A stretch of DNA of 64,000 nucleotides from an uncultured Chloroflexia bacterium. GTDB taxonomy: Bacteria; Chloroflexota; Ktedonobacteria; Ktedonobacterales; Ktedonobacteraceae. Below are positions 2,332 through 62,700 of the stretch, in pieces. The position numbers and the translations under genes are program-made. The stretch lies in NCBI GenBank assembly GCA_963727755.1, contig CAVSHN010000008.1:541156-605155 (forward strand). Reading direction: 5' to 3'. How positions within the stretch are numbered: the stretch's first letter is position 1; each line of letters opens with the position of its first letter. Below the pieces are notes generated by a model. The model was given only the letters and a program-made list of their open reading frames with translations. It made no database searches and was not told where the DNA came from.

Positions 2332-4192
2332 ATGACACAAGAAGCTGCTACGAAACAAAAGAGCAGTCTGGATAAGTCGATTGATCTGGGGCTAGACCAG
2401 TTTGGGCGTTTTTTGAAAAGCTCTTGGCTCTGGCTCACAATCGTATTCGTACTCATCCTTTTCTTCACATCCATAATCAAGATACCTGGGGTCGATCCAG
2501 GTGTCATCCTCACATCGACGCTTGAGATTGGCTTCGCAATTTGTTACATCCTGATCCAGTTTATCGCTCTCTTCTGGTTCTTAGGACGTCCACGCCTGTA
2601 TTGGGTCATGCCTGGAGAAACTGGAGTCACCTTTGACGATTATAAAGGCAATCCTGAAGTGCTCGAAACAGCCCGGCGCATGGTTGCATTATTGCGTGGC
2701 ATTAAAGAATTCGAGCAAATGGGCGGCAAACCAGTCCGCGGTCTGCTACTCTCTGGCCCTCCAGGAACAGGTAAGAGCTACCTAGCACAGTGTATGAGCA
2801 CTGAAGCTGGCGTCCCATTTGCCTATGCCAGTGCCGCCAGTTTCCGCGCTATGTTCATTGGCATGGACGTCCTTATGATTAGCAGGCTCTATCGCAAAGC
2901 TCGCAAACTGGCACGCGAGTATGGCGGTTGTGTTGTCTTCATGGACGAAATCGACGCTATCGCTACATCACGTACCGCCCGAGGCGGGGGAACTATGGCA
3001 ATGGGAGGCGGTATCTTCGGTGGTATGGGGGGAACAGGTGGTCTCAATCAACTTCTGATGGAAATGGACCCACCGAACATTGAAACAGGCTGGTTTAAGA
3101 AAGTTCTCCGTATGCTCGGTCTCTACCATAGCCGAGCACAGAGTGAACCTGTCCTGACAGTTGGAGCAACCAACGTCCCTGAGTCCCTTGATCCAGCACT
3201 TCTACGTCCAGGCCGCTTCGATCGGAAGGTCCATGTTGCTCCACCAACAGATAAATACCGTCCAGAGGTGATAGAATTCTACCTGAATAAGGTGAAACAT
3301 AAACCAAATATATCTCTTCCTGCACTTTCAGCTCGAATGGTTAACTATACACCAGTTGCCATTAAGCATGTAGTCAATGAAGCAACCATTGTCGCTCACT
3401 TCGATGGCCGCGATACAATCACTTACAAAGATCTTGTTGATGCACAGGATGTACATGAATACGGCCTGCGCCAGATAAGCGAACTGACACCCATCGAACG
3501 CCGTCGTTTGGCTTACCATGAAGCTGGCCATACCGTCGCTGCTTACTACCTGAAGGACCGCGAATACCCAGCATTCGTCACGTTACATGGCCACGGAGAT
3601 GTGGAAGGAGCCGCTGCTTTTGCACATTCTCGACCAAAAAGAAACTGTCATTACGCAAAATCGAGAAGATCTTCTGGCTCAGATCCAAGTCTGCTTGGCA
3701 TCTCGCGCCTCTGAAGAACTCTTCCTCAATACCCAACTGAGCGGCGTCACGTCAGACTTTGCGACAGCGACCCAACTGGCCACGTTATACATAGGCGCAT
3801 TCGGCATGGATGGCACGATTACATCCTACCTAGGTTTTTCCGACGGGTTCATGGGAGCTAATCCACGCGGCTTGCCAAAAATGGAAGAACGTGTAGAAGC
3901 GTTGCTCCAATCGCAACTTAAGGCCGTCCGACAGCTCTTTATGGAACATCGAGAAGCTCTTATCGCCCTTGCTGAAGCCTTGATAGAGCGTGATGAACTG
4001 GTTGCAGAAGAAATCAAGGAGGTGATTGCCAGTGCGGATGCACGTAAGGCTATCCAAACTGTTCTCAGTGAATTCTCTCCACTGCTGGGAACAGGCAACA
4101 ATGGACATAGAGAGGCTATAGCAAATGGCCATAGCAAGGAAACGCCCTCTCTGCCCAGCCCACGAAATAATCCTCCGCAGAACATGGACTGA
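2332..4192 (+). CDS. FtsH-like AAA+ ATPase / M41 zinc metalloprotease paralog, reading frame interrupted
   Basis: Walker A GPPGTGKS, Walker B DEID, sensor GATN, PGRFDRKV, HEAGH zinc motif, then an FtsH C-terminal helical region. The track's ORFs 2332..3714 and 3587..4192 join if one A is dropped from the A5 run at 3636-3640. Atypical N-terminus (two TM helices, no FtsH periplasmic domain) and a Gly-rich insertion between Walker B and sensor-1. Confidence 0.7.
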
Positions 4193-6746: not shown

Positions 6747-8415
6747 GTGATAAAATTGATGAAAACAGATACTTCACTGAGTCAACTTACTCATACCCTT
6801 TACTCCAGTATGCTTACCAGCTCTCGATCTAAGCAACACTGGCTAACCTTACTAACGTGGATAGCCGTGCTGATTTTCTTCACAGTCGCTATTTGGATGC
6901 GCCTACATTTACTTGACGTCCCTTTTGATCGCAATTCATACGACGAAGGCGTCTACTGGCAATCATTACGCTCAATGAGTACAGGTAGTTTGCTCTATCA
7001 ACAAATTTTCTATTCTCAGCCCCCAGCTTTCTTGCTCTCTATCTATCCTTTCTACGTTCTTCTCGGTCAAACAATCTGGTCTGCCAGACTAGGTATTGCC
7101 ATTATCTCATTATTTGGCTTTCTAGGTGCTCTGCTCCTAGGCAAAGCCTTAGCGGGACGATTGGGTTTGCTTTTTGCATTGCTGCTACTAACCATCAACC
7201 CACTCTACCTTACGGAATCACAGATACTACAGGCTGATGCCCCATCAGCAGCTCTGTCACTACTAACCATAGGACTAGCCTATCTCTGGTGGCAAAGGCC
7301 TAATGGGATTGCAGGATACTGTCTGGCAACTCTGACTGGAATGACACTCGCACTTAGTATCCTCACTAAACTTCTAGCAATTTCTGCTGTGATACCTGTC
7401 AGTCTGCTAGTACTTGCACACCTCGTGAGGACGAAAAAGCAAGCAGAGGTAATTTCCTCGCATTCTAAGAACGTACTCTTCCTCGGATGTGTAGCTATCG
7501 TGCTAACTACCATCTTGCTATTAGAGCCTTTCAGGCCTGCATTTCCACAGTTGTGGAAAATGGTTGTGACTTTCCACACTAAAGCCGAAAGGCCTTATCT
7601 AGCTACGCAAAAATGGAATAGCAGTGCCATTCGGCCTATCCTAGTATCCTTTCTTGGTGCTAGTGCCCTCTATGGCACTCTGATAGCACTATTCAGGCGT
7701 GATTGGCGCGTGATACCATTGTTAGCATGGTTGGTTGCAACAATCTACCTGTTATGGCAACAAGTCCCACTCTTTCCTCACCATCTGGTGGCCCTCACTC
7801 CTCCTCTGATCGCTTTAGCCATCATGGGCATTTCTCCCATCACCTCCGCAGAACAACGTCCCAGACTATTAGATGATCCCTTGTTCCCCCTGGCTACCAC
7901 GAAAAATAGCTTCTTTCAGTAAAAGGATAACCTTTTTAAAAGGCACATCTACGACAACTCACGCACTAGTTACCTATACCACAACCGTACTAGCAATGAT
8001 TTTAGCCATTTGTCAAATATCTATCAATATTCAAGCAATACGATTCTTTTATGACAATTCATATGTAATGGCCCGATCACCAAATGTGCAGCTTAGCCTG
8101 CATGCCGTGCAAGATTTACAGCAATTTACTAAACAAGGCCAGTTAGTCATCACAGATGCCCAGTTCATTGCCGCACAAGCAAACCGCAACACACCTGCCA
8201 GTCTGGTTGATACCTCAGAAGTGCGCATCATCGTAGGCTATTTGCCTACAAGACAACTAAGAGAGGAAGCTTCGCAACCCCAGGTGTACGCTATCCTTTT
8301 TTATACAGATCGTCTTGACAGATTTTTGCCGTCATTCTACAATTGGGTACAGTACCACTTTCACCTCGCCTATTACTATGGCGAAGGAAAGGAGCTATGG
8401 GTCAGAAACCCATAA
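6747..8415 (+). CDS. Second GT39/ArnT-like membrane glycosyltransferase, frame interrupted
   Basis: ORFs 6747..7922 and 7873..8415 together match the neighbouring 563-aa paralog (TM region plus C-terminal domain). They join if one C is removed from the C5 run at 7886-7890. Confidence 0.5.
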
Positions 8416-8551: not shown

Positions 8552-8895
8552 TTATTCATCCCGCCATCCCTTTTTCAATTCACGTACAAAACCGATCATA
8601 CCCTGACGCCAGGTCATTTTCTGTTCTCGCTTAGCCTTTTCTTGCTGGAGCCGAATCGTCTCCAGCATAATAGAGTCGCGCAAGCTTTCCAAGCGCTCGA
8701 CATCATAGGCAATACGCTTCAGAGGATCACTCAACACCGCATAGGCCTGATTGAGCTGCTTGATACGGCTATTCTCGTTACCTTTATTGATGTCAGGATG
8801 ATAGAGGCGCACAAGACGACGGTAAGATTGCTTGATTGCTCAAGAGAGGCATTTGTCGGAACTTCGAGAATTGCATAATAATCTGGCGGCTGCAT
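8552..8895 (-). CDS. J-domain (DnaJ-like) protein, frame interrupted
   Basis: MQPPDYYAILEVPTNASLE in one frame continues as AIKQSYRRLVRLYHPDINKG...LNQAYAVLSDPLKRIAYD in the next, which is a classic J domain with HPD. One base is missing near 8842-8848. ATG at 8895 is preceded by AGGAGA. Confidence 0.6.
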
Positions 8896-9361: not shown

Positions 9362-9783
9362 GATACCCCTGCCTTTAGGCATGGGGAGGAATTGCCCCCT
9401 GCACGCAATGGGATGTGGGGAAGGCAAGTGGAGGGCTGTCCTTGTGCGTAAGCACTCTCTTGCCTCTCCTTTCTGTTCTGTCCCCTTGCGGGGAGCCGTT
9501 TTTTGATAGGAACGGCTAAACCGACACTGGTCTCCCAGGTAATGTTCGCCTCGACGATGATATCAACCGGTACTTTCCGATGAGCACTGGCTTAACCCTT
9601 GTACACCTGTTTAACCCATCAGTTCTAGAGCAGCGGGCTGGCGTCGCACCCGCTGGTAGGAGCTTGAACACTTGTTGATATCGTAGCCCCGTCAGCCTTT
9701 CGGCTGGTGGCTGGGTCTGGTCAGGTGGGCTTGATGAAACAACGTTGCCGCTGCTCACAAGCCCCTAGCGAAAGCTTGCGGGT
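9362..9783 (-). mobile_element. Miniature IS200/IS605-like element with omega-RNA-like scaffold and no protein gene
   Basis: Shares its 5' hairpin, a ~270-nt structured core and a 3' end region with the IscB element at 61030-62701 but has no iscB. The 5' flank is TCAGG before AACCC. See findings. Confidence 0.55.
9516..9783 (-). ncRNA. Orphan IscB-type omega-RNA-like structured RNA
   Basis: Aligns end-to-end with the region 5' of iscB (62430-62700). Stems show compensatory substitutions (gatatcaac/gttgatatc versus gttatcgac/gtcgataac; cggg..cccg versus cacg..cgtg). Confidence 0.5.
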
Positions 9784-10636
9784 TCCTGACAGATGGGTTC
9801 TATTCTAGGGAGTGACATCTCCCCATGACTAATGAATGTTAAGAAATTAACAGGGTAAAGAGATAAGCATCGTATATACCCTCTTAATTTTTTAAAGTTC
9901 ATAAGTCATGGGCTTCCCATCCTCACGAATGAGCTTTTCTGTTTCATCGGGGGTTGCCAGTCTGAGCTTTCGCCTTGAGCGGGTCTTATACTCCCTCCGC
10001 AAACCTAAATTCCCCTGAGCCCCAGGGTACTTACTCAGGAGCCACTTTGGGCTGCTGACAACGCTATTCTAGCAGATCTATCGAAAATTATACACTGGAA
10101 TAGGCAAAAGGTACCCCGGTGCCCAACCCCCATTAAAGGACGCGTCATTCATCCCCATAGCTGAAGCAAGGGGTCTTCTGACGCAAGAAGAATAAGCGCC
10201 GACACGTCAAGGGTTTCCCACAAAACCCAAAACTGTCCCTCTTTTCTCCTATGAGAAAGTGCAAACTTCTGTTAAAATAAAATCAAAATGACAGGCACAA
10301 AAAAGCTAGAGATCCTGCCACCTCCGGTCCTACTAAAACGTATAAAGGGAAAGGCTGTTTAATTTGACTTACCAAATTATCCAAGAATTTCTAGAGAATC
10401 CGGCCCTCAGGGACTAGAATGAAAGGAGGACTTGCGTTATAATTGGAATAGGAATAATTTCCAACTTGATATTGTTGCTTTCTAGAAGAGACAGGATACA
10501 TGTCATTGAATTCCTCTTACTCGGCGCCCGGACAGAACGGTCTGACGGAGGCCCGTTTTCCCTGAGTGTAGGACCATACAAATGAACAGATATCTTGCTG
10601 CTTAGGATATACTTACTTTTTCCTGGAGGGCGCACA

Positions 10637-11852
10637 ATGATAAATACAAAGCGTGCCATGATGGGAACAACGCTTACATTAAATACAATGAAAGATCCCG
10701 ATCCCGAGAAGCCGTTCGACATCGTTGGGCAATTGCTTGCGAAGGATATTGATTATACTCCAGAGGATGAAACGGGCTCAGCTAAAGATGAACAAGAGTT
10801 GGAGGAAGATTTGGGAGATCTCGAGCTCAGGGCCCCTTGAGATAGAAGAGATTAGCGATATACACGAAGAGCTTAGTCCCGTACCAGCCTCTGAGCTAGA
10901 GGTTGATACCTTGCTCCAGTTGCCAACAATTGCTACGGCTACAGAAGGAGAACACCCTGTTCGCCGTACTGCCATGCGCCGTCGGCGTTCAGAAGACCAA
11001 GATGAGAACACCATTAATCCTGCCGATGCAGGCGAGTCAGATGCAGTAATGACCTATCTACGTGAAATCGGGCGGGTTCCGATGATCACGCACGATCGTG
11101 AAATTGAACTAGCCCAAAACATAGAAGCTGGTGATCGCGAGGCAATGAAACAATTTATCCTCGCAAATCTTCGCTTGGTAGTTAGCATTGCTAAACGCTA
11201 CGTTGGTCGTGGACTGACTCTGCTGGATTTGATCCAGGAAGGAAATATTGGCTTGATCAGGGCCGTTCAGCGCTATGATTGGCGTCGTGGCCATCGGTTC
11301 TCCACCCATGCAACTTGGTGGATTTGTCAAGCCATTAGCCGTGCAGTTGCCGATAAAGGGCGTACTATCCGTCTTCCCGTCTACGTCAATACCGCTCTTA
11401 ATCGCATTCGCCGCGAACGCCAACGCCTGTTGCAGGAGTTAGGACGCGAGCCAACTGAGCAAGAACTGGCCGAGGCTACTGGCTTAGATCCTATCCGTAT
11501 GGTCGAGTTGCAATCTGCACCCGGAGCACCTGTCTCGCTGGAATTGCCAGTTGGTGAGGATGAAGAGCAAGAGTTAGGTGATGTGCTCGCTGATACTGAA
11601 TCAGCTTCACCAGAAGATCTCGCTACAACACAAACTCTCAAGGACGAAGTACAACGCGTTCTAGAATCGGTACTCACTCCACGTGAACAGCTTGTCTTAC
11701 AACTTCGTTTCGGTCTAGGCAATGGTCAGGCTCACCCACTTGAGCAGGTTGGCCGAGAACTGGGTATCACTCGTGAACGAGTGCGTCAGATCGAGGCCGG
11801 AGCCCTAGCCAAACTGCGTCAGCCTCCTGTGCTCGATCGCTTACGCAGCTAA
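10637..11852 (+). CDS. RNA polymerase sigma-70 family factor (RpoD/SigA-like), frame interrupted
   Basis: Regions 1.2-4 are clear (YLREIGRVPMIT, DLIQEGNIGLIRAVQRYD, THATWWICQAISRA, RERVRQIEAGALAKLR). The acidic N-terminal region sits in ORF 10595..10840 and the rest in 10725..11852. They join by a 1-nt change in the CCCC run at 10834-10837. Start proposed at 10637 after GGAGGG. Confidence 0.8.
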
Positions 11853-12141: not shown

Positions 12142-12466
12142 CTACCCCTCATACAGTGTCAGCCCTTCTTCCACGATGCTTTGTTGTAATAGCAGATCAG
12201 CATGCTCAAACTGCACTAGGCCGATTTTGAGGAGAGTAGGCACTCGATCGTCTTCCACATCTGCTAAGCGACAGATGTCTAGCCATTCCCTGCGATCTTT
12301 GACACCGACCACTGCCATATCAATGTCAGAAAAAAGTGGTATGTGTGCCCTTTGCTCGTGGACCGAAAAGAATGACTTTCTGCACGCTTGGGAATGTACT
12401 GATGTACTCCACCAGCTTGTTAATAGCCGGATGGAAGGTGTTGCTCTTCTGCGATGTATTCATCAT
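12142..12466 (-). CDS. Minimal nucleotidyltransferase (MNT/MntA-like antitoxin), frame interrupted
   Basis: MMNTSQKSN...VILFGPRAKGTHTTFF then SDIDMAVVGV... in the next frame. The break is an A6 run at plus-strand 12330-12335. The track's 12176..12511 plus-strand ORF is antisense to it. Confidence 0.5.
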
Positions 12467-12567
12467 GAGAAAATCCCTTTCGTATATCATATCACACTTC
12501 TTCTGTTATAGGAATGCTATGCAGGTCAGGTCATCACTTTGTGGATTAGCAGCCATTTCTTTTCTCC

Positions 12568-12921
12568 TTACTGTTCTCTAGAAGAGTATTCCTGAATAAG
12601 CTGTTCTATCTGCTTCTTAAGTATCGGCAATGCGTTTACTACTGTATCCCAAATTCTATTAAAATTTATGCCAAAATACTGATGAATGACAACATCCCTC
12701 AAACCTGCCATTTCTTTCCATGGAACATCTGAATGCTTCTTCCTGAATTCGTCGGGAAGGTTTTTCGTTGCCTCTCCGATAATTTCAAGTCTTCTGACAA
12801 CAAGGTCTTGCTTCTCTACAGATGTATGAAAATACTCTTCTGTTACCCCTTGCACATACATCTCTATGAGATTAATCGATTCCAAAATGCGCGTGAGAAA
12901 AACGATTGGCTCTTTTTTCAT
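12568..12921 (-). CDS. HepT-like (DUF86) toxin of a HepT/MNT pair
   Basis: 117 aa with the Rx4HxY motif (RDVVIHQY). Overlaps the upstream MNT gene by 4 nt. Confidence 0.7.
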   Translation of the reverse strand: MKKEPIVFLTRILESINLIEMYVQGVTEEYFHTSVEKQDLVVRRLEIIGEATKNLPDEFRKKHSDVPWKEMAGLRDVVIHQYFGINFNRIWDTVVNALPILKKQIEQLIQEYSSREQ

Positions 12922-13439
12922 AAAATTGGATACTGCGATGCTAGAATAGAGTCCTTCAAAAGTGGATGAATTCCCCCATACTCAACTACATCGACCTTCC
13001 TATGCAATATTTCCTCAATAGCTTGTTTTATCCCAATCAAATCAAAAAGCGTTTTGCCCCTAGGAAGATCAACAAGAACATCAATATCACTATTTTCGTT
13101 GTTATCTCCCCTTACATATGATCCAAAAAGTGCGGCTTTTTTCACTTCTGCCTGTTCAAGTACTGGTAGTATTTTTTGTACTATTTGTTCCAAAGTTAGC
13201 TGTTCCATTACACCTTCGCTGTACTCATTACGAATACTTTCACGTGCAAAGTTGAGTACCGCAACAATTTGCTCGCGTGTTAGTTGGGGATACTCATCAA
13301 GCAATTTCTCAATGGTATAGCCTAGAGCAAGCTGTTCAAGGACGAAATCCACACTGATGTATGTGCCTGCAATACAAGGCTTACCAGATGCGATGTTGGG
13401 ATCAATACTAATATACTGGTTATCAATCATAATGAGCAC
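12918..13439 (-). CDS. DUF433 domain fused to a minimal nucleotidyltransferase (MNT antitoxin-like)
   Basis: N-terminal IDPNIASGKPCIAGTYISVDFVLEQLALGYTIEKLLDEYPQLT is DUF433-like. C-terminal GSYVRGDNNENSDIDVLVD is the GSx9-DxD nucleotidyltransferase motif. Confidence 0.7.
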   Translation of the reverse strand: MLIMIDNQYISIDPNIASGKPCIAGTYISVDFVLEQLALGYTIEKLLDEYPQLTREQIVAVLNFARESIRNEYSEGVMEQLTLEQIVQKILPVLEQAEVKKAALFGSYVRGDNNENSDIDVLVDLPRGKTLFDLIGIKQAIEEILHRKVDVVEYGGIHPLLKDSILASQYPIL

Positions 13440-13493: not shown

Positions 13494-16042
13494 CTTACTT
13501 CTTTCCACCAAGATCGCGTGCAACAGAAACCACGCCTTTGATTCTCTCCAAGCGCATGAATAGGCGATGTAATACCTCTAGCTCAGTAATCTGTACCGTC
13601 ATAGTCACAATGGCAGTATCCCGATTGGCCCGACTACTGATCGAGAGCAAATCAGTTCCAATGTCACCAATGACAATCTTAATATCCCGTACCAGGTTTT
13701 TCTCGTTTCGCGCAACAACTACAATAGATGCAAGATAGTGCTGTTGACTTATTCCCGACCAATCTACATTAATTAGCCGTTCACCATCCTGAGTCCGAAT
13801 ATGAGTTATATTATGACAATCCGCACGGTGGACAGATTACCCCCTTGCCACGACTGACAAAACCAACAATGGCATCACCCGGCAAAGGACAACAACAACC
13901 CGCCAGCTTAGATAAAAGACCACTGACTCCAGCCACCTCCAACTGAGCTGTAGCCACTTTAGTGGTGACGGCAGGGAGTGGACGAGTGTCTTGATCTTCC
14001 TTCAGTTCTCTTGTTTCTTTCCCTTCGCGCTGCTGCCAGTATACAAGGAGTTTCACAACAACAGGATGAGGACGCATATCATCTGAACCAAGACTTGCCA
14101 GGATGTCCTCAAATGACTCGAGATGGAATTCGCTACAGAGCATATTCTCGGCATCTTCCGTGATAGCCTCTACACCACGAGGGCCCACAGCCTTGAGTTC
14201 ACGATCTAACCGTTCACTCCCAATTTGGATATTTATAGGCCGTTCGTGAAGCTTAATGTAGCGCCGAATTTTGCTCTTGGCTGTAGCCGTACGGGCAAGA
14301 CTCAGCCAATCCCGCGTCGGATGTGCCGTACGATTGGTGACGATATCAACAATTTCTCCGCTCTTCAATTCGTAATCAAGTGGCACCATACGCGCCACCA
14401 ACCGCCCTCGATCCTCGCCTTCTTCTATCGTCGGTGTAATAATACGCGCACCAGCACATTTCTCACCAATTCCAGAATGAATGCGATAGGCAAAGTCAAG
14501 CGGAGTTCAGCCAACTGGTAGATCTTTCACTTCGCCTTTCGGCGTGAAGACAAAGATCTGCTCCTCAAAAGCATCATCCTTGCTGCCCACATCAACCAAT
14601 TCGCTCTCGCTCGTATTGGCAGTACGCAGATCTTGCTGCCACTTGGCAAGTTGCCGCAACCAACCTAGTAACTCTCTCGCAGAGGCAGAAGCAGAGTCAC
14701 CAACATCTTTGTAATGCCAGTGCATAGCAACACCATACTCTGCCATTTCGTGCATGGCATGAGTACGAACCTGAATTTCTACAAGTTGGTCATCCAGACA
14801 GAAAACAGTTGTGTGTAGAGCACTATACCCATTGGGTTTAGGATTGGCAATAAAATCTTTGATACGCCCATCCTTTGGCTTCCATAGGCTATGCACATGA
14901 CTCAACACAACATAGCAATCAGTCGTCGTATCAACCAGGATACGAAAAGCGATCAGATCATGAATCTTGCTGATATCAGCCGCCGCCTTGAGCTGTTCAA
15001 AATCCTCAACCTCACTAATTTCGCGTGCAATTTTTCGATAGAAACTATAAGCATGTTTCACACGCCCAGAAACTTCCGCTTTGACTCCGATCGCAGCCAT
15101 CTCTGAGCGCAAGAGACCACAGACATGCTCAACATACGACCTCCACTGCTTACTCTCTTCCTCGATGATATCGCGCACCCAGTTATACTTCTCGGGCTCT
15201 AGAACCTCAAAGGCTAGGTCCTCCAGCTCACACTCTACGCGTGACATACCCAGCCGTCCCGCCAGTGGAGCATAAATCTCTCGTGCTCCCTGCGCTGTGA
15301 CAAGCACCTGTTGCTGATCACTTGGATATATTTTTTCACGTATAAGGCGCATAGTATACAAGCGATATGCAAGTTTGAGGAGCACAACTCTGGGGTCATC
15401 CGCCATTGCTACAAACATCTTGCGAACAGCCTCGGCTTGTTGGCGACGCATTGCCTCCCGTACACGCGGCTTTTTACTTTCCACATTTGAGGCTATGCCA
15501 GCATCATTTTGCTCATTATAAATCTTCTTATGGCTTGCAGCTTGCATATTCTTAATCGTCGCCATTGCACCAGTTGCTGCATTTTGCTTTTTACGTTCCA
15601 AAATATTGAGCCGAGCCATACTGTCAATCACACGTGCGGTAGCTCTTCCCAAGACACGCTCGACCTGCTCAATAGTCAAAAGTTCAGCATCTACCGCTTC
15701 AAAGATCAAGCCAGCAGAAATACCTATTGCATCGACATGCATCATTTGAGCTAGAATGGTTGTGACGGCCAGAGCACGTTCCACGCGAGGCAGGAGATGC
15801 ATCTCTTCTACGCCCTGGCGACAGCTATCTAGCGATAACCGAAAAGCCGCAACTACCATATCTACCTCCTGGACATTCATGTATGGGGATACCAAGTCCA
15901 GGAGTTGCTCCATTGCACTCTGGTAAGGATCTTCTGTGATGTGTTGTTCTATCGATCTATCATCTATCATAGACTTTTTGGCTATGAAAAGGTATACCAC
16001 CTCAAGGAGAGAACAGTTGACCTGTAAGGCCACCTCCAACAT
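13494..16042 (-). pseudogene. RelA-like long RSH paralog with degenerate hydrolase motif and several reading-frame lesions
   Basis: Synthetase domain is intact (DLIAFRILVDTTTDCYVVLSHVHSLWKPKDGRIKDFIANPKPNGYSALHTTV). The HD motif is replaced (FEAVDAE versus HDVVEDT in the neighbour). There is an in-frame TGA at 14497-14499 where the paralog has Ser (PVG*TPLD). Around 13812-13850 the conserved GKGVSVHRADCHNITHI only appears in a +1 frame between two compensating indels. An ACT domain follows, ending GGKK. Confidence 0.6.
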
Positions 16043-16186
16043 ACAAATACAACGACTCTAAAGGATCTTGTTCAAGGCCTAAAGATTGCACAGCAACCAA
16101 AAATACATACGCCTACTTAGTATACGTTTCAAATCGGCTCTTGTTAGATCTAACTGACTCACCAGTAGGAAAAATGGGGACTCATT

Positions 16187-18640
16187 CTATTTGCTCGAAG
16201 CGCGTCCAACATCAAGCACCCCTTTCACCTGGCGTAAACGACCTTGGATGCGCTCGATTTGATCAAGAACTCCAGATTCAGAGGGAATCTCCAGGGTAGC
16301 TGTGATCACCGCTTTTTGGGTTGTAGTATTACTCGTCGAAGTTACTGATGTCATATTTACGCCAGCATCAGCCACAACCGATGCCACATCACGCAATAAA
16401 CCTGCACGATCATAGGCTATAATACTGATCGGAGCAAGATAATACTCCGGCTGGATTTGTAACCAGTTAATCTCTACCAGGGCATGCGTATTACCTCGAT
16501 TGCGATGTAGCTTTTGACAGCCATTGCGATGCACAACCATCCCACGATCGGGAGTGAGAAAACCTACAATCTCATCCCCAGGGAGAGGGCAACAGCATTG
16601 CGCTAGATGAACCAGGATAGTACTCTCACCATCTTTTTTATACAGGTTGCGCTCACTCCTCTTCACCCTATCCTTCTTATCTTCCTGTGTGCCCTGCTCA
16701 GTGCCAAATCGCTTAGGTAAAAGAGGCAATAAATGCTCCAGAACGGGCTCAACCTGGAGTTCCTCACGACCTAGCGCTAGATAAATATCTTCAACGGTTG
16801 CATATTTTTTGAAGATTGAGTCGGCAGCAATCTCTTCAGAGCACAAGCCAACAAGCAACTCCTCAACCATTTCATTAACACCTTCAGTCCCGGAAGCTTT
16901 TAGTGCCAGGGATAGCAGCTCACGACCCAGTTGGACATTAATCTGATGCTCATACGTTTTTAGATAGCGCCAAATCTTGGTGCGTGCCGCAGCCGTACGC
17001 GCGAATGAGAGCCAGTCTCGTGTTGGATGAACCTCGCGATTGATAATGATATCAACAATCTCCCCGCCTTTCAGCTTATAATCAAGCGGCACCAAACGCG
17101 TCACCAGACGACCACTGTCATCCATGTTTGAGATAATGCGTGCGCCCGCACAATGATCACCAAGGTCTGTATGAATGCGATAGGCCATATCCAGAGGAGT
17201 CGAGCCAACTGGCAGATCTTTCACTTCGCCTTTTGGTGTGAAGACAAAGATCTGCTCCTGGAAAATATCTCCTTTGACCGCTTCCACAAATTCGTCAGCC
17301 CCCTCCTGGGGTAAGGAACGCTGCCACTCACGCAACTGCTCAATCCAAGTAACCATCTCCCGATATGATAAACGCCAACTCGCTGGAACAATCTCCTCAT
17401 CGGGCAATTCTTCTTCTTCCTGCCCCATACGATCCTTCAGGTACCAGTAACTAGCAATGCCATAGTCAGCTGTACGCTCCATATCATGGGTGCGAATTTG
17501 AATCTCAGCTAAGCAATTATCCAGGCAAAAGACCGTTGTATGCAATGATTGATAACCGTTGACCTTGGGAATGGCAATAAAATCCTTGATACAACCATCT
17601 TTAGGACGCCAGAGCGCATGGATATGCCCCAGAGCAAGATAGCACTCATAGTCTGTATCGACAAGGATACGAAATGAGACCAGATCATGGATCTGACTAA
17701 GATCACTGCCATCTTGCGATGATGGCAGATCCTCCAGTTTCCGATGAATACTAGCCAAATGTTTCTGCCAAGCCATGATCTCAGCATTAATACCCGCCCG
17801 CTTCATCTCTGTATGCAAGGTACGCTGAACTTCACGAATAAAAGGCAGACGCCTTTTCACTTCTTCTTCAATTTGACGAGCAAGACACTTATATTTCTCC
17901 GGTTCCAGATAACTGAAAGCAAGATCCTCCAGATCCGCCTGGACCAGGGACATCCCCAGACGACGCGCTAACGGAGCATAAATTTCGTTGGTTTCACGTG
18001 CCGTATTCTGTTGTTGGGCAGGAGACATCACTGCAAGCGTACGCATATTATGCAAACGGTCAGCTAGCTTCAGGACTACCACACGTGGATCTTCTGCCAT
18101 CGCTAACAACATTTTACGTACAGTCTCTATGCGCAAACGACGTTTATCAACCAGTGAAGGGGGAGCAATTGGGCCATCTTGATCATCACCTGAAATTGGC
18201 TTATTGGATAAAGCTAGTGCATTGAACTTTGTGACACCATCTACAATATTGGCTACAGCTAAACCAAATTGGTCACGCAGATCATCTACTGAATAGTGGG
18301 TATCTTCAACAACATCATGCAAGAGAGCAGCTACAATACCTTCCGCATCGATACGCATGGCCGCTAGCAGCAAAGCAACCTCTAGAGGATGCTGGATATA
18401 GGGCTCTCCAGAACGTCGCAGAGCACCTTTGTGAGCCAAGAAGGCAAGATCATAAGCACGTTTGATCTGCTCAATATCCTGCTCTGCAAGATATTGCCTC
18501 GTTTCTGACAGCAAATCCTCTAAAGTCAGTTGAGAGGGCGTATCCCCTACTCCCAGATTCGTTGTTGTCCCGACTAGAGGTAACACTGCCTGAAACCGCT
18601 CGGCATTATCAACAACCTTATCAAAGTTGGTAGCCATCAT
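16187..18640 (-). CDS. rel: Bifunctional (p)ppGpp synthetase/hydrolase Rel (RelA/SpoT homologue)
   Basis: 817 aa. HD domain (HDVVEDT), synthetase domain, TGS, the CCCPLPGD zinc-finger region and a C-terminal ACT domain are all intact. Confidence 0.9.
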   Translation of the reverse strand: MMATNFDKVVDNAERFQAVLPLVGTTTNLGVGDTPSQLTLEDLLSETRQYLAEQDIEQIKRAYDLAFLAHKGALRRSGEPYIQHPLEVALLLAAMRIDAEGIVAALLHDVVEDTHYSVDDLRDQFGLAVANIVDGVTKFNALALSNKPISGDDQDGPIAPPSLVDKRRLRIETVRKMLLAMAEDPRVVVLKLADRLHNMRTLAVMSPAQQQNTARETNEIYAPLARRLGMSLVQADLEDLAFSYLEPEKYKCLARQIEEEVKRRLPFIREVQRTLHTEMKRAGINAEIMAWQKHLASIHRKLEDLPSSQDGSDLSQIHDLVSFRILVDTDYECYLALGHIHALWRPKDGCIKDFIAIPKVNGYQSLHTTVFCLDNCLAEIQIRTHDMERTADYGIASYWYLKDRMGQEEEELPDEEIVPASWRLSYREMVTWIEQLREWQRSLPQEGADEFVEAVKGDIFQEQIFVFTPKGEVKDLPVGSTPLDMAYRIHTDLGDHCAGARIISNMDDSGRLVTRLVPLDYKLKGGEIVDIIINREVHPTRDWLSFARTAAARTKIWRYLKTYEHQINVQLGRELLSLALKASGTEGVNEMVEELLVGLCSEEIAADSIFKKYATVEDIYLALGREELQVEPVLEHLLPLLPKRFGTEQGTQEDKKDRVKRSERNLYKKDGESTILVHLAQCCCPLPGDEIVGFLTPDRGMVVHRNGCQKLHRNRGNTHALVEINWLQIQPEYYLAPISIIAYDRAGLLRDVASVVADAGVNMTSVTSTSNTTTQKAVITATLEIPSESGVLDQIERIQGRLRQVKGVLDVGRASSK

Positions 18641-23978: not shown

Positions 23979-25168
<1,190 letters not shown>

Positions 25169-34033: not shown

Positions 34034-37000
34034 ATGCCTGGGAATAAACAAGTCTTTAGTACAGCACTGAATGCTGCTGAGCGCCTCCTTTGGGCTTGCC
34101 AATGGATACAGGCTCTGCAAGAATACCAACAAGCACTTGCTGAGTTCCCAGAAGACTTAACAGCTCGCAGCGGTCTCGGCTTCTGCTATATGCAGACCAA
34201 ACAATGGTCAAAAGCACTCGAGGAGTATGGATATGTCCTCAAGAGCGAGCCGAGTAATATTATCGCATTAAGTAAAATTGCCGAGTTGTATGGTATTTTG
34301 AATCAACGTGAGGACGCCTATCATGCGTACCTCCATCTGGCGAATCTCTACTCGCAAGCTGGCCAGGGAACACGCGCAGAGGCAGCGTGGCAGAAAGCTG
34401 TTCAACTGTCCCCCGGCAAACCAGAGCCCCATGAACGGCTCGCAAGCTACTATTTTGAGAAAAAAGATATCGCTCAGATGATTCAACAACGATTGGCAGC
34501 TGCGCAGGACTACCTTCTGTGCAATAAGATCTCATCAGCACAGAAACAATGTGAAGAAGTACTGCGTGCAGATGCAACAAACGCTCAAGCACAACAGATA
34601 CTCGTGCAAATCCAGGATAAAGAAAATGAGGCATCCAATCCATTAGCACTGATAGCAGGAGTATCATCGGTTAACAATGCAGATAGCCCTGTGAATAGAA
34701 TATCAGCAGCCAAAACTGATTCTATCCTATCTAGGGATAACTCTGCAAAAGAAACTTTTCCATTGGGAAATATAAGCGGAGGGAATACTGGCATGATGAA
34801 TAATATGGGCGGCGCAGGTAATTATGGCAACGTTGGCAATTTAGGACCAACTGCAACCATGAACGGGAATGGTGGAGGCATAAATTCTGCCCCTCAGCAG
34901 AGGATCACTGCCAGCCAAGTCACAGAAGCATTGCAACAGGCGCAAATATATCAAGACCAGGGCCGTTTCAACGATGCTATCAACCTCTGCGAACAGATCC
35001 TGGCAAGTGGCTTTGACCGACCAGACGCACGATACTTCCTAGGTTGGCTTTATCAGGAACAACAGCGCTGGGACGAGGCCGTTGAACAGTTCCAGGCTTT
35101 ACTCAACGACCCTGACTACGCACTCTCCTGCTACTACTCACTGGGGCAATGCTACCGAGCAGGCGGCGATTTACGCTCTGCCACCGTGCATTTCGACGAG
35201 GCCGTTGATCGCGTCAACCTCGACGCCCTGACGGTGGAAGAGTCCGATCAACTTGTTCAGCTCTGTCAAGAGGCCGCTGAGGCTCACCGCCTATTAGGCG
35301 AACAGGAACAAGCTTTCACGATCTATAATGCCTTACTTGGTTTCCTGCGCAGTCGTGGCTGGAATGATAAAGTTACGCAGGTCGAGTTCATGATTCAACA
35401 GGCACAGAATATTCTTCCTGCCGACGCTTCTTCAATGACGGGTATGGCACAGACTCAGTCGCCACAGATACCAGCCGATGAAGTCCTCGAAGCTCCCACA
35501 GTAGCTGTCAATACAGCTAACATAGCCAGTAACACACAGTCATCACCTGCTCCAGCCAGTTCTACCGGTGACTTACCTGATTGGCTCACAGGCATTTTGA
35601 ATGATGAGGACAAAACACAAAGGGCCAATAAGCCTGCTACCCCTCCCCCTGCGGCCAAACCAGCACCAGCCATCGAGCAGCCAGCACCCATACAACCTCA
35701 GACTGCTACACCACAAGCATCGGTTGCCCCTCCTGTCGCACCAATAGAACCACCCACGACTACTACACCTGCAAAATCGACTTCCTGGTTAACAGACGAT
35801 GCCAATGCCAACGCCACGCGTGTTCTTCCACCAGAACCCCCGGTTCCTGCTAAACTCAACCACCTGCCGCACCAATACCCGTGCCACAACCACCTGCTGC
35901 ACCGCAGGCTGCTTCCACTGCCCCCATTCCAGAGCCAGCATTTCAGCCGCCTGCCGATGTATTCATACAACCAACATTTAGTGCTCCATCAATTCCTCCA
36001 GTAGATCAGCCTGCTTTTTCCATACTAAGCACTTCTTTCACCCCAATCCCTCCTACACAGCTAAACGGAGCTGCCGCCGCCGAAGATCTGCTTAACCAAA
36101 TGGCTGGAGCACAAGCTAATGAGCTAAATAACGTTGCTGACGCCGTTCTAGCCAGCACAGCTTCATTGCCAGAAAATCTACGCCTGCAAGTCGTACGCTC
36201 CATGCAGAACATTCAGAAGTATATCAACCACGGACTACTGACCCCAGCAAAGGAAGAGTGCTTGCGCGTAATCAATATCGCACCACAATATCTAGATGTA
36301 CACCAAGTACTATGCGAAATCTATGTCCGTGAGGGAAAGATCGATCAAGCCATCCCCAAATACGCTATTCTGGTCGATACCTACATCGCCAACGGGCGTA
36401 TCGAAGATGCTACCGCAACTTACCGACGCATCCTAGAACTCGACCCCAATAACATTACGTATCGCATGCGCCTAATCAATATGCTCTCGGCCCAGGGCAA
36501 CACAGAAGACTTACTGCGCGAGCGTACCTTGGCTGCCAGAGTCTTATCTCCGCCTTGGCTATATGGACCGCGCAATGACTGAGCTTGAACAGGCACTGCT
36601 GGAGAATCCGACCAATGTGCCAACTCGTCTGAACTATGCGCTGGCACTACAAAAGCTAGGACGTACCCAGGAGGCCATTGCAGAATACCAGCGCGTGTTA
36701 CAAGTTGATCCGCGCAATACCACTGCCCTTGTCCGTTGGCATGTCGCGATGGTCACAAACCTAGGTACGCCCCGAGGCACATCGCTCGAGGTGCTGTCAC
36801 GTATCCGCTGGCAATTGCGTGGTCCAGGACAGAAATATGCAGACTTTGTGACACGTGAGTATCTACAGGCATTAGATCTCTACCCCAACAATGCCGATGT
36901 GCATTATACATTAGGACAAATCTACCAGCAGAGTGGTCAATACGACCGTGCACTCGACTCATACCTCCTAGCCACACGCGATAATGCTGTCGAGATCCTG

Positions 37001-37972
37001 GCTCGCGTCAGCGCCGCTCAAACATTGTTTGCACAGGGCAGACCTGAACCAGCTATGCAGCACCTTGAACAGGTTTTACAACAAGTGCGACAATCTCCCA
37101 CTGCAATTGACCTCGCTACATGGGCCGCACGTCCGCGTGAAGAAGGCGAAGAACACCAAGCTCCCGAAATGGAAATCTCCTTGCAGCTTGTACAGGCCTA
37201 TAAACGCACAGGTCGTCAAGAGCAGATGCAAGCCCTTCTGCGCCAAGTGAAACAGCTTAAGACTGGACAGGACGAGGTAGTTTCCACCCTAGCCGATATA
37301 TCAAACCTGAATAACGACCCTGAAACCACCATGCGCGAATACCTCAAGTTGGTCAAACACTATCGCCAGAGCCGACAGCATGATAACGCACTCAAGACAT
37401 TGAATGAGATGATACGCTTTGCACCAGAGGACCCACGTACTCACGAAGAGCTGGCAGATATCTACATCAAGCGAGGCATGTTGGAAGAGGGGATGGCAGA
37501 ATTACGCATCCTGGCAGATATCTATCTCCGCAACGGCAATCTAGAGCAATCTGCTACGAAAATTCAACACATTGGCAACATGTACGCCCAGATGGGCAAC
37601 AACGATGAAGCACTATCTACCCTCTTCCGCGCCGCAGAGTTAGATAACAGCTCGATGGAACTGCTACGCGAGGTAGTTGGCCTGTGCCTGCAACTCGGCC
37701 GCAACCAAGATGCTGCTCGCTACCAGATTCAGATCGCCCGCCACTATGTTGCCACAGACCAGATCAAAGATGCTGTCGCAGCTCTCCAGCAATTGATTAC
37801 CATCGACCGCAACAATTATGAAGCCTATGACTTGCTAGGCCAAACCTACCAGTCTGTGGGTGAATATGAACAAGCCAGTCGTGTTTATCGCAACCTCGCC
37901 AAAATGAACCCCAGCAGTTCCACTGCCCGTGAACGACTAGCAACACTGCAAGAGTTACGTGCAGCCCGTTAA
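34034..37972 (+). CDS. Very large TPR-repeat protein with a Pro/Ala/Thr-rich low-complexity linker, two frame interruptions
   Basis: TPR repeats in 34034..36004 and 36563..37972. ORF 35881..36582 bridges them. Breaks are at the AAA run 35852-35854 and at tt in gtcttatctcc (about 36545). Confidence 0.55.
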
Positions 37973-44449: not shown

Positions 44450-45010
44450 CTATGTTTTGCTACGAGAAGATCTCAACGAACCCCGCCGTGTGGCCTCCTC
44501 CAGACTAATTAGTTCGTCTTGGCCTTTTCCTTGTGCTTTCCTCCGCCGTGTCGTCTCCCCCAGAATGATTGGAGGACTCTGCTCGTCTTGGCCTTTTCCT
44601 CGCGCTTTCCACCTCCATGTCGTCTCCCCCAGAATGATTGGAGGACTCTGTTCGTCTTGGCCTTTCCTCCGTATCCCTCCTCGCCGTGTCGTCTCCCCCA
44701 GATGAGGACTTAGCATCCCCAACTCGCCTTTTCCTCGCGCTTTCCACCTCCGCGCCATCTCTCCCAGATGAGGACTCAGTATCCCCAACTCGCCTTTTCC
44801 TCGCGCTTTCCACCTCCATGTCGTCTCCTCCAGATGAGGACTTAGCATCCCCAACTCGCCTTTCACTCGCGCTTTCCACCTCCATATCGTCGCTCCCAGA
44901 TGAGGACTTATTATCCCCAACTCGCCTTTTATTCGTTTCTCCCTGGGCTGATGATATATCACGTCTCTTCGCAATATTTCGGGAAGGCTCCACCGATGAG
45001 CTTGCGCCAA
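44450..45010. repeat. Minisatellite of about eight units of 59-69 nt
   Basis: Units are cgtcttggccttttcctcgcgctttccacctccatgtcgtctccc(c)cagaWtga.... Unit length varies, and ORFs are open in four frames, so coding status is uncertain. Confidence 0.6.
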
Positions 45011-46579
45011 GACGCTTCTGCCCTGAAATTCACCGATGAATTAGCCTCGAGTTGTCGAGACGATGCCATTGGATTCAAACCTGCGTCCGGTACGTTGGAA
45101 GGAAGCATGTTCTCACCCATTTGGGACGATGGAGCCCAAGAGTAATCATGGAATTGAGAAGGCGCTTTTGCACGGGAGCAAGCCGGAACATCAGCTTTTT
45201 CCATCCTTAAGCTTTGAGATATTGTATCCGAATACATTTGATGAGGAGCAGTCATGCTGATCTCATCCCACTGTCTATTGCCATAGGGTCTTTGTCGCAT
45301 TCCACCGCCGTATCTCCTCCCTCCATTGCCAAAGGGCATTTGTCGCATTTCATCGTTGTATCCCCTCCTCTGTTCACGGTCCCTTGCTTCAGATGCAATA
45401 CGGGCGGCTCTTTGTACCTCACTGGAGGAAGCAGAGCCATCAGCTCGTCCCCACGATAAGCGTAGAGGCGCCGTGCAGAAATTTTTAATTGCAGTAACTC
45501 GTCTCCTGCAGGAGCTTGTAAGTCTCGCCAAATCGTCATATATAGGCTCTCTCAATGCCCATAATATAGTTCCACCTAATAATAATCCAATAGACGCGAA
45601 TGACTTTGGCCAGTCTACATTTCTACCGTTTTCACAATGAGATATGCCCAATGCATCTTTACAACAATTGTAGTAATGGACCAGATATTCGCCTTTGCGA
45701 TATGCCTCATAGGATCTATACGGCTTACAATACTCCTCAACTTGAGGGTATTGAGACTTTCCAACCTCCTTATTCTTTTCAAAACTCTTACTGTCTTCCA
45801 CAACTCCCTCATCATCTATTAAATTTTTATTTTGCTTACTAATCTTTTTATCGTTAATCTCCCCTTTGAGGCGCTTCCAAGCCTCTGGATTTTCCTTGAG
45901 ATAGTCAACTAAAGACTTAACAACCTCCCCTGGAACCTCTGTCCTTTTGCTCTCGCGATGCTCTTGTGATGGAGTCTCCATTGCGGATTCGAGCAGCCTT
46001 CTCACTAGGTGTTATCTTCTTTGAGTGGAGGTCAGGAGGGGTCTTTTCGCTAGGTGTTTCCTGACCCTCTCCTTGATGCAAGCCCTTGGAAGCTTGCTCA
46101 CCTTCTCTGGCGGCCCATTTATCAATATCTTCAGCCAAGTGAGGCCATAGCTTACGTAACGGCGAGTCCTCGTTGGGAACTCCCAAGTTTTTATTTGTCC
46201 CATCTGGATCAGATGACCCTGCGGTATCCTGGGATAATTTCCTCTCTGGCAGTCCCTCAATGCAGTTGGCTCGCTGATCGGGCGCTACTTGAAAAGAAGG
46301 TCTTTGATCCGTTAGACCTTTGCTGTCCATCGGAACAAGAGCAGAGCCAGAAGCTTCAGGCGTTGAGACACCCTCGACACAACTTATCCCCGAAAAAGCT
46401 ACTTGGACAGCCAGAGCAGCCACGCCAAGACGGTACGCTCCTGCGAATGCAACACCTATATACTTCTGCATTTTATCAAAATCGGTATCGCATCCATCTT
46501 TTGAATTTGCTTTCTCGCTAGACTTTGATTCATGTTCACTATTTACGTCTCCTGACATCCTTATTTCTTCGAATCCCAT
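44959..46579 (-). CDS. Paralog of cassette gene 2, frame interrupted
   Basis: ORF 45917..46579 is about 75% identical to the N-terminus of the 553-aa protein. ORF 44959..46005 aligns to its central helical repeats (LKENPEAWKRLKGEINDK versus LKEHPEARKCLQMVQNDK). The frames meet near 45960-46010. Confidence 0.4.
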
Positions 46580-62429: not shown

Positions 62430-62700
62430 GTGTAAAATTCCTTTCGGAACCTGGAAACCCAGGTGATGTGTGCCTCGACAATGTTATCGACCCGGTACTT
62501 TCTGATGAGCACTGGCTTAACCCTTGTACACCTGTTTAACCCATCAGTTCTAGAGCAGCACGCTGGCAACGCACGTGCAGGTAGGAACTTTAACTCTCAT
62601 CGATAACGTAGCAGAGTCGCCTCTGCTGAGTCTGGTCATGTGAGCTTGTGAAACGATGCTAGCACCGCTCCACAAGCCCCTGCCCGCAAAGGCATGGGGT
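62430..62700 (-). ncRNA. Putative IscB omega-RNA scaffold
   Basis: About 270 nt directly 5' of iscB and abutting the element's 5' end. It is conserved in the orphan copy at 9516-9783 with compensatory stem changes. ORFs 62303..62569 and 9516..9758 across it are not credible genes. Confidence 0.55.

What the first reader, a model, noticed from the sequence alone, without database searches (positions are those of the whole stretch)
13494..18640. Two tandem long RelA/SpoT-homologue genes. The downstream copy is RelA-like with a lost hydrolase motif and carries an in-frame TGA plus a compensated double frameshift
The upstream gene is a complete bifunctional Rel. The downstream paralog keeps the synthetase, TGS, zinc-finger and ACT regions but has FEAVDAE in place of HDVVEDT. 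It reads PVG-TGA-TPLD where the neighbour has PVGSTPLD, which is a substitution (TCA to TGA) and not a homopolymer indel. In addition, the universally conserved GxGVSVHRADC segment is legible only in a shifted frame between two indels 30 nt apart (13812-13850). This is either a decaying second alarmone synthetase or a synthetase-only RelA made unreadable by errors. Two long RSH genes in tandem are unusual outside Beta/Gammaproteobacteria.
Basis: partly seen in the sequence, partly recalled or inferred. Interest (0 to 1): 0.6.

Follow-up and report, generated by a model that had tools for sequence, protein, structure and literature searches.

The report
Tandem alarmone genes; breaks look artefactual
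Two neighbouring stress-alarmone (ppGpp) enzyme genes are a real, conserved feature of Ktedonobacteria. The stop codon and frameshift that seem to kill the second gene are most likely sequencing errors in an error-rich long-read assembly, not gene decay.

Summary
The window is Ktedonobacteria (Chloroflexota) DNA. Two long RelA/SpoT-homologue genes lie head to tail on the minus strand: rel at 18640-16187 and a RelA-like copy at 16042-13495.

**What is confirmed**
- The downstream copy has FEAVDAE in place of HDVVEDT.
- It carries an in-frame TGA at 14509-14507.

**What is wrong in the finding**
- There is no compensated double frameshift. One extra base (C at 13835) shifts the frame, and the shifted frame runs to the natural stop at 13495.

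**Why the lesions look artefactual**
- No relative shares either lesion. Ten other Ktedonobacteria loci keep the same tandem pair, and the downstream gene is uninterrupted in all of them.
- Six of 13 syntenic genes in the window's first 20 kb are split by 1-nt indels, including a sigma-70 factor gene, an FtsH-like gene and a DnaJ-domain gene. tgt is split too. All are intact in relatives.
- Two sister assemblies 99.8% identical differ by ten 1-nt indels and by substitutions concentrated at GANTC. One of these turns the other RSH gene's catalytic Glu codon into TAA.
- Downstream of the TGA, window-branch substitutions are 11 synonymous to 5 non-synonymous.

**Verdict:** an intact, conserved RelA-like gene garbled by consensus errors (about 0.7). 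A very recent real truncation remains possible (about 0.2).

**Real point of interest:** reciprocal motif decay between the two copies suggests a RelA/SpoT-like split.

The parts
16187..18640 (-). Upstream long RSH gene (817 aa, uninterrupted). Rel-type with intact hydrolase motifs, possibly SpoT-like.
   Evidence: ORF. Pfam HD_4, RelA_SpoT, TGS, AH/RIS, ACT_4. Motifs HPLEVA, HDVVEDT and DRLHNMRT are present. The best solved relative is a chain deposited as 'GTP pyrophosphokinase RelA', 8fr8.
18299..18319 (-). HDVVEDT, the metal-binding HD motif of the upstream hydrolase domain.
   Evidence: Conserved in all 10 upstream orthologues aligned.
17735..17773 (-). AWQKHLASIHRKL, the upstream copy's altered version of the synthetase motif GRxKHxYSxYxK.
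   Evidence: All 10 upstream orthologues have A/P/V-W in place of G-R and lack both Tyr. All downstream copies and the actinobacterial Rel sequences keep GRxKH.YS.Y.K.
13495..16042 (-). Downstream RelA-like long RSH gene, about 848 codons once the TGA and the extra base are set aside. The likely true start is the ATG at 15970 (MIDDRS...).
   Evidence: 94% identical to the intact 846-aa P0001 and 61-90% identical to more than 100 full-length Ktedonobacteria proteins. The start is inferred from the N-termini of the orthologues.
15683..15703 (-). FEAVDAE, the degenerate HD motif. The other hydrolase motifs are also lost (RVERALAV for HPLEVA, KLAYRLYTMRL for KLADRLHNMRT).
   Evidence: The degenerate forms are conserved in all downstream orthologues.
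14705..15067 (-). Synthetase (RelA_SpoT) domain of the downstream copy, with the motifs intact.
   Evidence: Pfam E = 2e-35. SGRVKHAYSFYRK, DLIAFRILV, NGYSALHTTV, VEIQVRT and YGVAMHWHYK are present.
14336..14557 (-). TGS domain of the downstream copy, which contains the TGA.
   Evidence: Pfam TGS at residues 496-569 of the repaired protein.
14507..14509 (-). In-frame TGA replacing an invariant Ser codon (TCA or TCG in relatives).
   Evidence: Ser is invariant in the RSH sequences of alignments A1/A2 and in the Ktedonobacteria copies; two of four actinobacterial Rel there have Ala or Gly. No SECIS-like hairpin follows the codon. TGA ends 7 of 25 ordinary genes in the window.
13835..13835 (-). 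A single extra C, a 1-nt insertion that shifts the reading frame once.
   Evidence: It is private to the window among five aligned assemblies.
13495..13834 (-). C-terminal part (IVHRADC, the end of the zinc-finger region, and the ACT domain), read in the shifted frame down to the normal stop.
   Evidence: Frame 0. Pfam ACT_4 on the repaired protein. There are no further indels against L001.

Best explanation
The locus is the conserved Ktedonobacteria tandem pair of long RSH genes.
- The upstream gene keeps the (p)ppGpp hydrolase site.
- The downstream gene is a hydrolase-dead, synthetase-competent, RelA-like enzyme that keeps the full ribosome-sensing C-terminal half (TGS, AH/RIS zinc finger, ACT).

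In the organism the downstream gene is most likely intact. The TGA at 14509-14507 and the extra C at 13835 are most likely consensus errors of an error-rich assembly, probably Nanopore-only, and not biological lesions.

Shown: the lesions, their absence from all relatives, the high rate of frame-breaking indels in this assembly, and the systematic errors in sister assemblies.

Inferred: that these two particular lesions are errors, and the enzymatic roles of the two proteins.
For: 1. **Lesions are private.** The closest relative, L001 (93% nt identity), and L082-L086 have uninterrupted 791-846-aa genes with TCA/TCG and without the extra base. The 120 listed homologues are 776-856 aa.
2. **Background error rate in the window.** Orthologues of 13 genes of window 1-20 kb were compared. 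Six are split by frame changes in the window: the FtsH-like gene near 3640, PMT_2 at 7890, DnaJ at 8837, sigma-70 at 10823, NTP_transf_2 near 12335 and the RelA-like gene. All are single-frame in L082. That is about 0.5 frameshifts per kb of coding sequence, so about 1.2 are expected in a 2.4-kb gene and one is seen. tgt is also split at a T-run. Several sites are homopolymers (G5/G4, T6/T5, T4, A5).
3. **Scattered, non-shared breaks in the same 90% clusters.** The downstream gene is 846 aa in three assemblies, 582+219 aa in another and 511+195 aa here. rel is 386 aa and 354 aa in two assemblies and intact in others.
4. **Systematic errors in sister assemblies.** L086 and L001 are 99.77% identical yet differ by ten 1-nt indels and 24 mismatches. 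Sixteen of the 24 mismatches fall on the G or C of GANTC, where the background is 0.55% of positions. One of these sites turns the Glu codon of AEIQIRT in L001's rel into TAA. So substitution artefacts that create stop codons do occur in this kind of assembly. The window also has four private changes that destroy a GANTC, against about 0.9 expected.
5. **Purifying selection persists.** On the window's own branch the downstream gene has 18 synonymous and 10 non-synonymous codon changes. Downstream of the TGA the count is 11 to 5, with binomial P = 4e-4 against 74% non-synonymous (my assumed share for unconstrained codons). This is similar to rel, at 22 to 9.
6. **The pair is conserved.** Tandem order was found in 10 of 10 Ktedonobacteria loci, including Dictyobacter and Thermogemmatispora.
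Against: - No reads are available, so neither lesion is directly disproved.
- The TGA is a C-to-G transversion that lies neither in a homopolymer nor at a GANTC site, so it lacks the two recognisable error signatures.
- A read-derived Logan contig of the same strain (L087, run ERR11594402) carries ...GGCTG and ends exactly on that G. The G is therefore present in raw-read k-mers, though possibly the same reads that built the assembly.
- It is the only substitution-type nonsense codon I found inside a gene in the window.
- Two lesions fall in one gene.
Confidence: 0.7

Rival explanations
1. The inactivation or truncation is real and very recent. At least the TGA is a true mutation, fixed or a dominant strain variant. 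The cell would then make a 511-residue product (pseudo-hydrolase plus synthetase, without the regulatory C-terminal half), or nothing. The frameshift may be a second real lesion or an error.
For: - The TGA lies outside homopolymers and GANTC motifs.
- The G is present in read-derived k-mers (L087).
- Loss-of-function relA alleles are viable in E. coli (background knowledge).
- Two lesions fall in one gene.
Against: - The lesions are absent from every relative.
- There is no relaxation of selection on the window branch.
- The frameshift matches the background error rate of this assembly.
- A stop codon created by substitution error is documented in a sister assembly.
- The gene is conserved across the whole class and appears to be the copy with the canonical synthetase motifs.
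Confidence: 0.22
2. Programmed recoding: the TGA is read as selenocysteine or read through, and the extra base is bypassed by a programmed +1 ribosomal frameshift.
For: A stop codon and a +1 shift occur in one otherwise well-conserved gene.
Against: - Neither feature is present in any orthologue.
- The position is an invariant Ser, not Cys.
- There is no stable hairpin after the TGA (z = +0.95).
- TGA is an ordinary stop in 7 of 25 window genes.
- There is no stop codon or known slippery motif at GUA-AUC-UGU.
Confidence: 0.01

Closest known systems
RelA/SpoT pair of Beta- and Gammaproteobacteria (E. coli RelA, PDB 5IQR; SpoT)
   Same: - Two long RSH paralogues share the work.
- One copy has lost the hydrolase catalytic motifs but keeps the synthetase motifs and the TGS/zinc-finger/ACT half, like RelA.
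- The other keeps the hydrolase.
- E. coli RelA is the best solved match of the downstream family (417 bits).
   Different: - The Ktedonobacteria copies are adjacent; relA and spoT are not adjacent in E. coli (background knowledge).
- They resemble each other (42-45% identity) more than either resembles actinobacterial Rel (35-37%). This points to a separate, lineage-specific duplication.
- The downstream copy has RIKD, not the EXDD motif described for proteobacterial RelA (the motif is recalled from the literature).
- No formal phylogeny was run.
Bifunctional Rel (PDB 8fr8, 6yxa, 1vj7; I take these to be the mycobacterial, Bacillus and Streptococcus equisimilis enzymes, which the PDB table did not state)
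   Same: The upstream gene has the full domain order and all hydrolase motifs. 8fr8 is its best solved match (475 bits).
   Different: Conserved changes in the synthetase motifs are not seen in the actinobacterial Rel sequences aligned: GR becomes A/P-W, both Tyr of KHxYSxY are lost, MH becomes ME/MQ, and AHWxYK becomes SYWY/F-L/M-K/R.
Extra long-RSH subgroups RshA-D (Atkinson et al. 2011, PMC3153485)
   Same: These are lineage-restricted additional long RSH paralogues outside the Proteobacteria.
   Different: Those subgroups are listed for Actinobacteria, Bacteroidetes, Bacilli and Deltaproteobacteria. The Chloroflexi classes sampled there had only Rel, and Ktedonobacteria were not sampled.
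Methylation-motif and indel consensus errors in Nanopore-only metagenome assemblies (for example the Flye + one-round Medaka workflow of PMC12313526)
   Same: - Frame-breaking 1-nt indels, partly at homopolymers.
- Substitutions piled up at one short palindromic motif (GANTC) between near-identical assemblies.
   Different: - I could not confirm that the window's contig comes from that project or from Nanopore data. This is inferred from contig naming, contig length (648,902 bp) and the error pattern.
- The TGA itself is not at a GANTC.

Membership tests
Long RSH (RelA/SpoT homologue) proteins | Domain order: HD or pseudo-HD, synthetase, TGS, helical/zinc-finger (AH/RIS), ACT/RRM. | tested here: met
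   Pfam on both proteins, the downstream one after conceptual repair.
RelA-type monofunctional synthetase (functional class) | Hydrolase catalytic motifs lost (H...HD...D/N). | tested here: met
   RVERALAV, FEAVDAE and KLAYRLYTMRL replace HPLEVA, HDVVEDT and KLADRLHNMRT. The degenerate forms are conserved in all downstream orthologues.
RelA-type monofunctional synthetase (functional class) | Synthetase motifs retained (GRxKHxYSxYxK, DxxxxRI, GYxxxHT, ExQxRT, AxHWxYK). | tested here: met
RelA-type monofunctional synthetase (functional class) | (p)ppGpp synthesis without hydrolysis, activated on ribosomes. | not testable with these tools
   Needs enzyme assays.
Proteobacterial RelA (orthologous group) | Shares the Beta/Gammaproteobacterial duplication; EXDD motif. 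| tested here: not met
   - RIKD in place of EXDD.
- The nearest non-orthologous sequence among those I compared is the in-genome paralogue.
- No full tree was built.
Bifunctional Rel (upstream gene) | Intact hydrolase motifs. | tested here: met
   HPLEVA, HDVVEDT and DRLHNMRT are present.
Bifunctional Rel (upstream gene) | Canonical synthetase motifs. | tested here: inconclusive
   The catalytic Asp and Glu are kept (DLVSFRILV, AEIQIRT), but the GR and Tyr positions and the AHW motif are changed in all orthologues.
Pseudogene | Lesions verified in reads or shared with related genomes. | tested here: not met
   - The lesions are private to this assembly.
- Reads are unavailable.
- Two metagenome scans for the TGA allele found nothing.
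Pseudogene | Relaxed selection after the lesion. | tested here: not met
   11 synonymous to 5 non-synonymous changes downstream of the TGA on the window branch; P = 4e-4.
Programmed recoding (selenocysteine or +1 frameshift) | Conserved recoding site with a stimulatory element. | tested here: not met

The most novel reading that the evidence does not exclude
Class Ktedonobacteria carries an independently evolved counterpart of the RelA/SpoT division of labour, kept as a fixed tandem pair. The upstream copy keeps hydrolysis but has a remodelled, possibly weakened, synthetase site. The downstream copy is a pure ribosome-sensing synthetase with a dead hydrolase domain. If so, the RelA/SpoT-type split arose at least twice by reciprocal decay of a duplicated bifunctional Rel.
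Probability: 0.5. Interest if true: 0.45.

Novelty: new member of a known kind. Interest (0 to 1): 0.2.

Why it matters
As flagged, the finding matters mainly as a caution. In this assembly, stop codons and frameshifts cannot be read as biology without the reads, because about half of the neighbouring conserved genes are broken in the same way.

The part that survives is modest but real. A conserved tandem pair with complementary motif loss would give RSH researchers a second, independent case of Rel splitting into a hydrolase-keeping copy and a synthetase-only copy. That case could be used to ask which changes are required for such a split.

Tried and rejected
- **Source record:** an exact look-up of the window's own proteins for their contig found no gene position on record. 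The protein collection shows only that they sit on a 648,902-bp NCBI/ENA contig.
- **Metagenome scans:** two scans for the TGA site, one accepting either allele and one G-only, returned 0 hits. The collection evidently lacks these organisms, so this is uninformative.
- **Genome scan:** Only 9 Ktedonobacteria loci came back, and the window's genome was not among them.
- **Selenocysteine or read-through:** rejected. There is no hairpin, the position is Ser rather than Cys, the codon is not conserved, and TGA is used as an ordinary stop.
- **GANTC as the cause of the TGA:** tested and not met. The site is not at the motif.
- **The Logan contig ending on the G of the TGA:** I considered reading this as proof of read heterogeneity at the site, but the end of a de Bruijn contig can have other causes, so I left it as unexplained.
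- **Literature:** searches for Ktedonobacteria RSH biology found nothing specific. The supplements of Jimmy et al. 2020 are not held.
- **Other in-frame stops:** a scan of the window for further genes with an in-frame stop found none convincing.
Full report
**What is in the sequence**

Both genes are on the minus strand. The upstream ORF (18640-16187) encodes an uninterrupted 817-aa protein.

The downstream gene starts at 16042, or more likely at the ATG at 15970 judging from the orthologue N-termini. It reads through 511 codons to a TGA at 14509-14507 within PVG*TPLDFAYRIH. It continues in the same frame to GFVSRGKGV, and from there is legible only one base further on, through IVHRADC and the whole ACT domain to a TAA at 13497-13495.

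Alignment with the closest relative shows one extra C at 13835, GGGGTAATCTGTCC against GGGGTAAT-TGTCC, and no second indel before the stop.

After conceptual repair the two proteins are 42% identical over their full length. Both have the long-RSH domain set.

**Organism and conservation**

The repaired downstream protein finds thousands of homologues. The top 120 are 776-856 aa, and those that carry a source name are Ktedonobacteria (Dictyobacter, Tengunoibacter, Ktedonosporobacter, Ktedonobacter) at 61-94% identity.

In ten Ktedonobacteria loci, including Dictyobacter alpinus and a Thermogemmatispora MAG, a rel orthologue sits immediately upstream of the RelA-like gene. The tandem pair is thus a fixed feature of the class.

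The degenerate hydrolase motifs of the downstream copy are conserved across the family: P/R-L-E-H/R-A-L-A for HPLEVA, FEAVDAE/D for HDVVEDT, and KLAYRL(H/Y)(A/T)MR for KLADRLHNMRT. Its synthetase motifs match the consensus.

The upstream family shows the opposite pattern. Its hydrolase motifs are perfect. In the synthetase domain GRxKHxYSxY becomes (A/P/V)W(Q/P)KHL(A/S)S(I/L)(N/H/Q), MH becomes ME/MQ, and AHWxYK becomes SYW(Y/F/H)(L/M)(K/R) in every orthologue. The catalytic Asp and Glu remain.

On established knowledge of these motifs, I infer a hydrolase-keeping, SpoT-like upstream enzyme and a synthetase-only, RelA-like downstream enzyme. This was not tested.

The two families are closer to each other (about 45% identity) than to actinobacterial Rel (35-37%). 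The solved-structure matches are the chain deposited as 'GTP pyrophosphokinase RelA', 8fr8, for the upstream copy, and E. coli RelA for the downstream copy over residues 195-840 only. A lineage-specific duplication is the simplest reading. A proper tree is still needed.

**Are the lesions real?**

Several independent lines say probably not.

*The lesions are private.* L001 (93% nt identity), L086, L082-L085 and all database homologues have uninterrupted genes, with Ser at the TGA position and no extra base.

*The assembly is full of similar breaks.* I translated 13 genes from relative L084 and aligned them to the window. Six need two reading frames in the window:
- the FtsH-like gene, near 3640 in an A5 run
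- PMT_2 glycosyltransferase, at 7890, G5 against G4
- the DnaJ-domain protein, at 8837, where the G of GATC is lost
- the sigma-70 factor gene, at 10823
- NTP_transf_2, near 12335, T6 against T5
- the RelA-like gene

The same genes are single-frame in L082, and all but two in L001. Pfam shows tgt split into profile positions 3-173 and 168-355 at a T-run. At about 0.5 frameshifts per kb of coding sequence, 1.2 are expected in this gene and one is seen. The 97%-identical sigma-70 factor gene is broken in the same way.

*The breaks in related assemblies are scattered.* The 90% clusters holding the window's proteins contain several long-contig ENA assemblies. The RelA-like gene is 846 aa in three of them, 582+219 aa in one and 511+195 aa here. 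rel is cut to 386 aa and 354 aa in two and intact in others.

*Sister assemblies show systematic errors.* L086 and L001 are 99.77% identical over 14.5 kb, yet differ by ten 1-nt indels and 24 mismatches. Sixteen of the mismatches sit exactly on the G or C of GANTC, against a background of 0.55% of positions. That is the pattern expected from basecalling errors at a methylated motif. One such site, together with a neighbouring error, converts the Glu codon of AEIQIRT in L001's rel to TAA, while L086 has GAG. Substitution artefacts that create stop codons therefore occur in this dataset. The window itself has four private changes that destroy a GANTC, against 0.9 expected. The only mismatch between the window and a read-derived contig of the same strain is also G/A at GATTC.

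*Selection has not relaxed.* I polarised substitutions with L001 as sister and L082/L084 as outgroups. The window branch of the RelA-like gene has 18 synonymous and 10 non-synonymous codon changes. Downstream of the TGA the count is 11 to 5, far from my assumed unconstrained share of about 74% non-synonymous (P = 4e-4). This is like rel on the same branch, at 22 to 9. If the lesions are real, they are very recent.

**What keeps the rival alive**

- The TGA is a C-to-G transversion that lies neither in a homopolymer nor at a GANTC.
- It is the only nonsense codon inside a gene that I found in the window.
- A 1,746-bp Logan contig from run ERR11594402 matches window 16255-14508 at 99.8%. It has its own 2-nt deletion, so it derives from noisy reads. 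It ends exactly on the G of the TGA.
- The G is therefore in the reads at k-mer level. Those may be the same reads that built the assembly, so this is not independent confirmation. The coincidence of the contig end is unexplained.

I put a real, recent nonsense allele at about 0.2.

**Recoding is excluded for practical purposes**

- TGA terminates 7 of 25 ordinary genes in the window.
- No hairpin follows the codon.
- The residue is an invariant Ser.
- No orthologue has either feature.

**Comparison with what is known**

Atkinson et al. 2011 (PMC3153485) list only Rel for the Chloroflexi classes then sampled. They describe extra long-RSH subgroups, RshA-D, in other phyla.

I found no paper on Ktedonobacteria RSH genes. 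The 2020 update by Jimmy et al. counts 13 long-RSH subfamilies, but its tables are not held.

Source databases name these proteins '(p)ppGpp synthetase' or 'RelA/SpoT family protein'.

**Verdict**

- The gene pair is real and conserved, and is a new member of a known kind.
- The 'decaying paralogue' reading is most likely an artefact.
- Interest as flagged is low. The reciprocal-decay observation is a modest lead.

Noticed in passing
window 2332-4192 (+), 6747-8415 (+), 8552-8895 (-), 10637-11852 (+), 12148-12466 (-), 23985-25168 (+): The FtsH-like, PMT_2 glycosyltransferase, DnaJ-domain, sigma-70 factor, NTP_transf_2 and tgt genes are each split by a 1-nt indel, several of them at short homopolymers. 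All are intact in related assemblies. The assembly is error-rich, so any apparent pseudogene in this window needs read support.
   Followed up: yes
L001 4537-4539 and the L086 vs L001 alignment: Two assemblies 99.77% identical differ mainly at GANTC motifs (16 of 24 mismatches) and by ten 1-nt indels. This suggests GANTC methylation in these Ktedonobacteria and motif-linked basecalling errors. One of these errors creates a TAA at the catalytic Glu codon of rel in L001.
   Followed up: yes
window 61128-62707 (-): An IscB-type gene (RRXRR + HNH, 433 aa) with a HEARO (omega) RNA immediately upstream at 62463-62707.
   Followed up: partly
window 9539-9790 (-): A second HEARO RNA (129 bits) with no adjacent IscB ORF. 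It lies inside an insertion of about 840 nt between the dUTPase and sigma-70 genes that L001 and L086 lack.
   Followed up: partly
window 12148-13439 (-): HepT/MNT-type toxin-antitoxin cassettes lie directly downstream of the RelA-like gene: DUF433-NTP_transf_2 (173 aa) with HepT (117 aa), then a second, split NTP_transf_2 and a truncated NTase_sub_bind. This segment varies between relatives. It is present in L001 and L086, partly present in L084, and reduced to a 48-aa remnant in L082.
   Followed up: partly
L087 (Logan contig, run ERR11594402) = window 16255-14508: A read-derived contig of the same strain ends exactly on the G of the in-frame TGA. This could reflect read-level ambiguity at the site, or it could be coincidence.
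   Followed up: partly
window 34034-37972 (+) and 44450-46579 (-): Runs of overlapping same-strand ORFs: three TPR-repeat ORFs, and three ORFs with no Pfam match. These may be further frameshift-split genes.
   Followed up: no
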